A program made the position numbers and the translations under genes. Below are positions 11,893-12,524 of a DNA stretch of 64,000 nt, in pieces. Under the pieces are notes generated by a model that saw only the letters and a list, made by a program, of their open reading frames with translations, ran no database searches and had not been told where the DNA came from. Each line of letters opens with the position of its first letter. Within the stretch, counting starts at the first letter, position 1. The stretch covers positions 141,608,001 through 141,672,000 of the forward strand of contig OZ360224.1 of assembly GCA_977017645.1 (NCBI GenBank), written 5' to 3'. Source of the stretch: Torpedo marmorata (Eukaryota).

Positions 11893-12028
11893 GTACATTC
11901 ATTCCAAGGAAAAACCCTTCAAATGTCAAGAATGCGGCAAAGGATTTTGCCAGTCCAGAACATTAGCTGTTCACAAAACACTGCACGTGCAGGTAAAAGA
12001 GCTTAAAACCTCTAAAATAAAGTGCTGA
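11893..12028 (+). CDS. OSR1: Odd-skipped-related 1, last coding exon (zinc finger 3 and tail)
   Basis: Acceptor TTTAG|G at 11892/11893, phase-compatible. Translates [44 protein letters not shown]. The [12 protein letters not shown] tail distinguishes OSR1 from OSR2. Confidence 0.97.
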
Positions 12029-12334
12029 GCACAAGCCTGCAAACAGGACTTTGAGCGGAACATCGATGAACGCCTATAATTGTGGACTTTTTTCCGTCAA
12101 ATTTAGAAGCTATATCCATTCTGCCGCCGTTCTTTTCTGTTATTTTAATTCCAGTGCGAACAGATTATATGTATCTGTGACATTCCACTGTCAGAAAACC
12201 CGTGTTGTTTTCTAAAGGAGATGCAAGAACCGATTTGTTTCACTAGATTCCTTACGATGACACAAGGGATGGTGACGACCTTCACCGTGAACTTGGGAGC
12301 TGGAAGGTGATGCCTTGCCTACTGTATTTGACAG

Positions 12335-12524
12335 GAAAATCCGCACATATGTCCGATGTATGGGCAGAGTGTGTGATTGAAGATCCGGTCTCGTTATCTA
12401 CATCGACCTAAAAGCCTACACGCGCCGCCAGTATGCGAAGAGAAACTGTGACGTGAAGCGCCTTCACCTCATGCACAACCCCAGAGACAAGCCAGGACTC
12501 AGAAAGGCCCCGCACTGTGGATAG
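12335..12524 (+). pseudogene. Degenerate vestigial exon homologous to OSR2-type zinc fingers 4-5, inside the OSR1 3' UTR
   Basis: After TTTGACAG| it reads ENPHICPMYGQSV*LKIR, then (+1 frame) LVIYIDLKAYTRRQYAKRNCDVKRLHLMHNPR. This is colinear with recalled OSR2 [57 protein letters not shown]. Confidence 0.85.

What the first reader, a model, noticed from the sequence alone, without database searches (positions are those of the whole stretch)
11990..12376. OSR1 tail [11 protein letters not shown] looks like read-through of an ancestral intron, and a cryptic short splice isoform is possible
Seen: finger 3 ends ...CTG CAC GTG CAG|GTAAAA (11992/11993), a phase-0 donor-like site, and the acceptor at 12334/12335 is also phase 0. 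Splicing the 342-nt intron would give ...LHVQ-ENPHICPMYGQSV*, equivalent to the OSR2 junction LHMQ|ESPHKC. Inference: the conserved OSR1 tail arose by intron retention, and a minor isoform with a 13-aa alternative tail and shorter 3' UTR may persist. Its stop would lie in the last exon, so it need not trigger NMD.
Basis: partly seen in the sequence, partly recalled or inferred. Interest (0 to 1): 0.7.

Follow-up and report, generated by a model that had tools for sequence, protein, structure and literature searches.

The report
Fossil zinc-finger exon in ray OSR1
The 3' untranslated region of this ray's OSR1 gene holds the broken remains of an exon for zinc fingers 4 and 5 that several sharks and a chimaera still carry intact, which shows that the familiar three-finger OSR1 arose by reading through an old intron.

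Summary
Observation confirmed: phase-0 donor 11992/11993, phase-0 acceptor 12334/12335, 342 nt apart, 13-aa spliced tail. It aligns to the five-finger OSR1 isoform of sharks (33 of 62 residues, score 142 against shuffle maximum 13, best of 59 AG anchors, old stop in place), with a frameshift, a stop, 7 residues deleted and 6 of 8 zinc ligands lost. Five-finger OSR1 models exist for 7 shark/chimaera species; none was listed for 8 ray species or any bony vertebrate. OSR2A/2B diverge at the same junction, and lamprey models show both five-finger and read-through forms. The intron read-through origin is well supported. The short isoform is unproven: the RefSeq model of the closest relative, Narcine bancroftii, uses this junction, but 0 of 4 assemblies showed it and 3 of 4 ran unspliced through the donor. 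Its tail is debris of finger 4, not a conserved product.

The parts
4057..4174 (+). OSR1 exon 1 coding part (upstream ATG; with 10772-10824 gives a 57-aa N-terminal extension)
   Evidence: tblastn of ray OSR1 proteins hits 4057-4185; donor read; loose ends of spliced contigs at 10770 match the end of this exon
10772..11468 (+). OSR1 exon 2 (internal ATG 10825; fingers 1-2)
   Evidence: 211 of 214 residues identical to Narcine bancroftii OSR1
11469..11892 (+). intron 2, GT..AG, 424 nt (positive control)
   Evidence: skipped in contigs of X10 and X6
11893..11992 (+). exon 3 part common to both forms (finger 3)
11993..12028 (+). read-through tail (11 codons plus stop); its first two bases are the donor GT
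   Evidence: 187 of 190 such tails start with Val
11993..12334 (+). ancestral intron 3, retained: tail plus proximal 3' UTR
   Evidence: contigs of X10, X1 and (to 12221 and on with diverged letters) X6 run through the donor unspliced
12333..12334 (+). ancestral acceptor AG
   Evidence: best of 59 AG anchors; Narcine model P0150 tail aligns from 12335
12335..12524 (+). decayed exon for zinc fingers 4-5 plus the OSR1-specific C-terminal stretch. One extra base near 12356-12364; stop 12374-76 in the spliced frame and 12378-80 in the old frame; 4 and 3 residues missing; old stop TAG at 12522-24
   Evidence: tblastn E 2e-11; frameshift-aware alignment; codons; no Pfam finger left in 12381-12521
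13060..13065 (+). AATAAA, likely poly(A) signal
   Evidence: spliced X10 contig ends at 13097

Best explanation
The window holds the OSR1 gene of a ray, probably an electric ray. The ancestral vertebrate Osr gene had five C2H2 fingers, with a phase-0 intron between fingers 3 and 4. If the weak donor after finger 3 is not used, the ribosome reads 11 codons into the intron and stops, giving the three-finger protein with the VKELK-type tail. If it is used, the exon for fingers 4-5 is added. OSR1 came to rely on the unspliced form, selection on the last exon relaxed, and in rays the exon decayed in place into 3' UTR. The main mRNA here keeps the 342 nt, encodes three fingers and ends near 13097. 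Any residual splicing gives a three-finger protein ending in a stub of finger 4, most likely leak without function. Shown: homology and lesions of the exon; five-finger OSR1 models in sharks and chimaera; unspliced contigs. Inferred: direction of change, relaxed selection, and lack of function of the stub.
For: (a) Shark OSR1 tails hit 12381-12521 at E 2e-11 to 4e-7, the decayed catshark tail at 0.002, and OSR2 tails at only 3e-5 to 7e-5, because the OSR1-specific stretch after finger 5 is also kept. (b) Anchored alignment: 33 of 62 identical, ending at the same stop. (c) 9 five-finger OSR1 proteins from 7 shark/chimaera species, 4 of which also have the read-through form listed. These group with bony-vertebrate OSR1 (94/99) apart from OSR2 (96/94) in a tree built without the tails. 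(d) Cyclostome, amphioxus, hemichordate, echinoderm and insect proteins have five fingers. (e) The OSR2B tail is the +1 frame of the OSR2A exon (24-25 of 25 residues compatible in 4 of 4 pairs; shuffles at most 13), in line with PMC3042965. (f) Models of 4 lamprey species have both a five-finger and a read-through form at this junction. (g) Fingers 4-5 differ from hagfish at 2-12 of 54 sites in 7 OSR1 proteins (median 6) against 1-5 in 13 OSR2A proteins (median 2), while fingers 1-3 differ equally little. (h) 3 of 4 assemblies run unspliced through the donor; two of these are spliced at intron 2.
Against: All five-finger OSR1 evidence is from automatic gene models whose read support I could not see; they may partly rest on alignment to OSR2A. 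No DNA of any other species was read, so intron positions elsewhere are inferred from where protein isoforms diverge. The only listed Narcine OSR1 model is the spliced one, which does not fit 'minor leak'. Contigs drop rare variants. The OSR1 node has 94 ultrafast bootstrap, just short of starred. Three of the faster-evolving OSR1 exons are related carpet sharks, so they are not independent.
Confidence: 0.88

Rival explanations
1. Same history, but in electric rays the 342-nt intron is still spliced at a substantial or regulated level. The resulting three-finger protein lacks the conserved basic tail, or the mRNA has a shorter 3' UTR, and this has a role.
For: The only listed Narcine bancroftii OSR1 protein (XP_069742579.1, no isoform suffix) uses this junction. 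No difference is listed for X10 between 12308 and 12349, around the acceptor (table cut). The stop lies in the last exon.
Against: 0 of 4 assemblies show the joint, including X1 (99%+ alike, continuous 11956-13019). The tail is not conserved: 13 vs 14 aa, and 5 of 5 listed X10 substitutions in 12335-12388 change the residue, against 3 of 13 changed codons in exon 2 (fossil codons read by hand).
Confidence: 0.2
2. The acceptor is dead in this species; the Narcine model is an artefact of aligning five-finger proteins to the fossil exon, and no spliced isoform exists.
For: No joint in 4 of 4 runs laid. The polypyrimidine tract is weaker than at constitutive acceptors, no YTRAY branch-point match was found upstream, and the donor lacks +5 G.
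Against: GT and AG are intact and in register. My branch-point scan also missed the real intron-1 acceptor. Contigs cannot show absence. Other OSR1 models splice from this donor to various acceptors (P0121, P0129, P0133 in sharks; P0182, P0183 in songbirds).
Confidence: 0.4
3. The match at 12335-12524 is chance, or a separately inserted OSR2/zinc-finger fragment, and the tail is an ordinary exon end.
For: C2H2 fingers cross-match: the same queries hit fingers 1-2 with similar E-values.
Against: The fossil starts exactly at the AG, keeps the OSR1-specific non-finger stretch and the stop, scores higher to OSR1 (115-142) than to OSR2A (88-90; shorter tails), and beats all 60 shuffles.
Confidence: 0.02

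Closest known systems
Vertebrate OSR2 splice pair OSR2A (five fingers) / OSR2B (three fingers)
   Same: Same junction after finger 3 and the same 3/5-finger choice. Described for mouse and Xenopus with two acceptors in exon 4, the B form about three-fold more abundant in animal caps (PMC3042965, passages read). The title of Kawai et al. 2005, seen only in that reference list, says the variants have opposite transcriptional activity.
   Different: OSR2 makes its short form by a second, frame-shifted acceptor 82 nt into the exon. OSR1 does it by not using the donor, and the position equivalent to the 2B acceptor has no AG in the window. OSR2 keeps the exon almost invariant.
Shark/chimaera five-finger OSR1 gene models (e.g. 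XP_067873832.1, XP_078397640.1, XP_007898597.1)
   Same: Orthologous gene, same donor, homologous last exon including the stretch after finger 5 and the stop position.
   Different: Open and with zinc ligands in those species; frameshifted, stopped and with 2 of 8 ligands left here.
Narcine bancroftii OSR1 model XP_069742579.1
   Same: Closest protein (211 of 214 in exon 2); spliced at the same junction to the same broken exon; its end coincides with the old-frame stop at 12378-80.
   Different: 14-aa rather than 13-aa stub (no extra base); annotated there as the only listed form.
Human/bony-vertebrate three-finger OSR1
   Same: Same 11-aa read-through tail; human OSR1 is described as 266 aa with 3 fingers (PMC10688984, passages read).
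   Different: No five-finger form among listed bony-vertebrate proteins; whether their 3' UTRs keep traces of the exon could not be tested.
Lamprey Osr isoform pairs (XP_032810691.1 / XP_032810692.1 and three other species)
   Same: Five-finger form and read-through form at the same junction, the latter also beginning Val-Lys-acidic.
   Different: Read-through tail is only 3 residues; exon intact; orthology to OSR1 or OSR2 unresolved.

Membership tests
OSR1 orthologue | Groups with OSR1, not OSR2, on N-terminus and fingers 1-2 | tested here: met
Pseudo-exon (decayed coding exon) | Homology to an exon that is coding in orthologues | tested here: met
Pseudo-exon (decayed coding exon) | Disabling lesions (frameshift, stop, lost functional residues) | tested here: met
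   The old-frame stop matches the end of the Narcine model, so it is not an error of this assembly. The extra base is absent in X10 and not listed as absent in X1 (table cut).
Pseudo-exon (decayed coding exon) | Evolves without coding constraint | tested here: inconclusive
   X10 vs window: 5 of 54 nt plus one gap in 12335-12388, 15 of 306 in the retained intron, 0 of 136 in exon-3 coding, 14 of 644 in exon-2 coding. One pair, small counts, table cut after 12388.
Intron-retention-derived C-terminus | Tail begins at a donor used in orthologues/paralogues, same phase | tested here: met
   (from proteins; no DNA of other species)
Intron-retention-derived C-terminus | Mature mRNA keeps the whole intron rather than ending in it | tested here: met
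   X10 contig of a relative (90-95% alike) is spliced at introns 1 and 2 and continuous 11891-13097
Living alternative isoform (11992^12335) | Junction reads in this species | tested here: inconclusive
   0 of 4 contig sets; contigs drop rare forms; no raw reads were offered
Living alternative isoform (11992^12335) | Conserved product | tested here: not met
   stub differs in length and sequence between window, Narcine and X10
OSR2-type A/B alternative acceptor system | Second, frame-shifted AG inside the finger 4-5 exon | tested here: not met
   no AG at the equivalent position 12404-12405
OSR2-type A/B alternative acceptor system | OSR2 intron at the same codon, read from DNA | not testable with these tools
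   no genome held; inferred from proteins and PMC3042965

The most novel reading that the evidence does not exclude
A three-versus-five-finger switch by intron retention predates jawed vertebrates (lamprey pairs). After duplication OSR1 fixed the retained form and turned the intron start into a conserved functional tail, while OSR2 invented a frame-shifted acceptor to reach the same three-finger state. The finger 4-5 exon then died in OSR1 at least three times independently (bony vertebrates, rays, catsharks) and is eroding in carpet sharks, while horn shark and chimaera still make a working five-finger OSR1. Electric rays may still splice into the wreck and make a tail-less OSR1, a natural test of what the tail does.
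Probability: 0.4. Interest if true: 0.68.

Novelty: new variant of a known kind. Interest (0 to 1): 0.5.

Why it matters
OSR1 is a key kidney, heart and limb regulator and is described as a three-finger protein. This locus shows that state is derived and shows how it arose, with the intermediate stages still visible in living cartilaginous fishes: intact, eroding, broken. It explains why OSR1 and OSR2 differ, suggests that three-finger Osr was reached by two separate splicing routes, and makes two questions testable: what fingers 4-5 add to Osr activity, and why an 11-residue intron-derived tail has been kept across jawed vertebrates. The mechanisms (intron retention, exon decay, division of splice forms between paralogues) are known kinds, and the shark models already sit in RefSeq.

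Tried and rejected
No own genome is held, so OSR2 DNA could not be read. Run search: no RNA holder listed on record; 12 runs, kinds guessed. I laid 4 of the 12. X2 gave nothing, which proves nothing. The fossil ORF 12381-12521 found no longer protein (weak evidence). A search with the shark tail listed 120 of 687 hits; the only cluster named as vertebrate OSR1 was the shark one, but five-finger members can hide in three-finger clusters, as P0154 did. RNA structure in 11960-12380: z -1.84, 4 of 100 shuffles as good, not pursued. No Rfam match in 11400-13300. AATAAA at 12016 inside the tail codons was considered as an early poly(A) signal; three contigs run past it. Branch-point scan was uninformative. 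The first tail tally dropped proteins lacking an exact motif and was redone; 89 of 389 proteins, nearly all invertebrate, stayed unclassified, and P0369 is a read-through tail filed under 'other'. Earlier findings: none. Literature: 9 searches listed no paper on five-finger OSR1 or an intron origin of the tail. Gao et al. 2009 (Dev Biol 328:200) is not held, and Kawai et al. 2005 was seen as a title only; either may discuss gene structure. Passages of PMC11368183 (Bowl has five fingers), PMC12999481, PMC4327956 and PMC2889900 added nothing on OSR1 isoforms. No supplements were read.

Full report
Observation. The window holds OSR1 on the + strand: exon 1 coding 4057-4174, exon 2 10772-11468 (internal ATG 10825), intron 2 11469-11892, exon 3 from 11893. 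After codon 248 lies CAG|GTAAAA, phase 0. Read-through gives 11 more residues and a stop at 12026-28 (259 aa). Splicing to the AG at 12333-34 removes 342 nt and gives a 13-aa tail (261 aa). By itself the acceptor is modest: one of 24 AGs in 11993-12420, pyrimidine fraction 0.68 against 0.79 and 0.84 for the constitutive acceptors.

Organism. Exon 2 is 211 of 214 identical to Narcine bancroftii OSR1, 210 to Pristis and 203-207 to the sharks compared. It is sister to Narcine in a tree (91/77). The window is a ray, probably an electric ray. No whole genome is held.

What the acceptor opens. The protein search and cluster look-ups returned OSR1 proteins with five fingers. Their tails hit window 12381-12521 by tblastn (Heterodontus P0126: E 2e-11, 48% identity), including the non-finger stretch found in shark OSR1 but not OSR2. 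A frameshift-aware alignment anchored at 12335 matches 33 of 62 residues, score 142. Sixty shuffles average -13 (max 13), and 12335 is the best of 59 AG anchors (next 87). The exon has one extra base near 12356-64, a stop at 12378-80 in the old frame, 4 and 3 residues missing, and 2 of 8 zinc ligands left; the old stop survives at 12522-24. Pfam finds no finger in 12381-12521.

Distribution. Of 389 proteins held, 240 classed as OSR1; 27 of these lack the end of finger 3. Of the other 213, 190 have the read-through tail (187 starting with Val, as the donor GT requires), 9 have two more fingers, 1 has a decayed exon (Scyliorhinus canicula, 18 of 54 sites changed), 3 end at the donor and 10 have other tails. 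The 9 come from Pristiophorus, Cetorhinus, two Chiloscyllium species, Heterodontus, Rhincodon and Callorhinchus; 4 of these 7 species also have the read-through form listed. A tree without the tails places them with bony-vertebrate OSR1 (94/99), apart from OSR2 (96/94). None of 8 named ray species has a five-finger form listed. Seven have the read-through tail, and Narcine has the spliced stub, ending where the old-frame stop lies. No listed bony-vertebrate OSR1 has fingers 4-5. Cluster lists show at most 15 members (15 of 21 and 15 of 16 for the two main cartilaginous-fish clusters; 15 of 38-213 for larger ones), so these absences are not complete.

Direction. Hagfish, lamprey, amphioxus, hemichordate, echinoderm and insect relatives carry five fingers with the same finger-4 start; Drosophila Bowl has five (PMC11368183, passage). 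OSR2A and OSR2B diverge at the same residue, and the B tail can be encoded in the +1 frame of the A exon from its 28th codon (24-25 of 25 residues in 4 of 4 pairs; shuffles at most 13). This agrees with two acceptors in exon 4 (PMC3042965, passages). Shark, ray and chimaera OSR2 have the B form too. Models from 4 lamprey species pair a five-finger protein with a 3-residue read-through form at the same junction, so retention may be older than OSR1. That is weaker evidence: the models may reflect unspliced RNA, Val-Lys is partly forced by donor sequence, and orthology is open. Fingers 4-5 of shark/chimaera OSR1 differ from hagfish at a median 6 of 54 sites (7 proteins) against 2 for OSR2A (13 proteins), with fingers 1-3 equally conserved. 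This points to relaxed selection even where the exon is open.

Is the short isoform made? I laid 4 of 12 listed runs, all contigs with kind guessed. The only joint was intron 2 (X10, X6). X10 (90-95% alike) gave one 2136-nt contig spliced at introns 1 and 2, continuous over 11891-13097 and ending after AATAAA 13060. X6 is spliced likewise and reads through the donor. X1 (99%+) is continuous over 11956-13019 but could be DNA. X2 laid nothing. So 0 of 4 show 11992^12335, but contigs drop rare forms. For it: the Narcine RefSeq model, whose read support I could not see. Against a function: X10 lacks the extra base and has lost the first Cys, and all 5 listed substitutions in 12335-12388 change the residue (read by hand), against 3 of 13 changed codons in exon 2 (the table was cut, 112 rows not shown). 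I put low-level splicing in this species at about even odds and a role for its product at about 0.2.

Mechanism. A weak donor (no +5 G) leaves a choice between adding fingers 4-5 and reading a short basic tail out of the intron. OSR1 settled on the tail and OSR2 on a second acceptor. With OSR2A supplying the five-finger protein, OSR1's last exon became dispensable (inference) and decayed into 3' UTR in rays. Neither form has a junction downstream of its stop, so neither should trigger junction-dependent decay (established knowledge).

Novelty. Nine literature searches listed no paper on five-finger OSR1 or on this origin of the tail; human OSR1 is described as three-finger (PMC10688984, passage). 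Two key papers (Gao 2009, Kawai 2005) could not be read, and most subscription papers are outside the library. The models are already in RefSeq and the processes are known kinds. Verdict: a real, well-supported piece of gene history, new variant of a known kind, interest 0.5.

Noticed in passing
window 4057-4174 + 10772-10824: An upstream in-frame ATG gives a 57-aa N-terminal extension. Similar 52-60 aa extensions starting Met-Pro are annotated in sharks, rays, chimaera, bichir, sturgeon and lungfish OSR1, but not in the 259-267 aa tetrapod and teleost proteins. Possibly a second ancestral OSR1 part lost later.
   Followed up: partly
proteins P0182, P0183 (songbird OSR1 isoform X2): These models splice from the same donor to a 9-aa tail starting with Glu; it may be the old acceptor or a new one.
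   Followed up: no
proteins P0121, P0123, P0129, P0133: Whale shark, sevengill and epaulette shark OSR1 models use the same donor with other tails; the epaulette tail shares a 4-residue motif with the bamboo-shark long tail.
   Followed up: no
protein P0092 (bear OSR2 isoform X1); P0063-P0065 (bird OSR2): OSR2 models that read through the same donor; the bear tail starts with the same three residues as the OSR1 tail.
   Followed up: no
proteins P0018, P0019 and others: Eight OSR1 proteins, the two checked being mammalian 'low quality' models, shift frame within the tail and run about 60 aa into the 3' UTR; probably an annotation artefact.
   Followed up: no
window 12016-12021: AATAAA lies inside the tail codons; three contigs run past it.
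   Followed up: partly
window 47299-50136 (+): 945-aa ORF with endonuclease and reverse transcriptase domains, a LINE-type element.
   Followed up: partly
window 58186-61873 (+); 56871-57596 (-): Fragmented LTR-retrotransposon-like ORFs (protease, RT/RNase H, integrase) and a separate RT fragment on the minus strand.
   Followed up: partly
window 2526-3081: Assembly gap of 556 N about 1 kb upstream of OSR1 exon 1.
   Followed up: no
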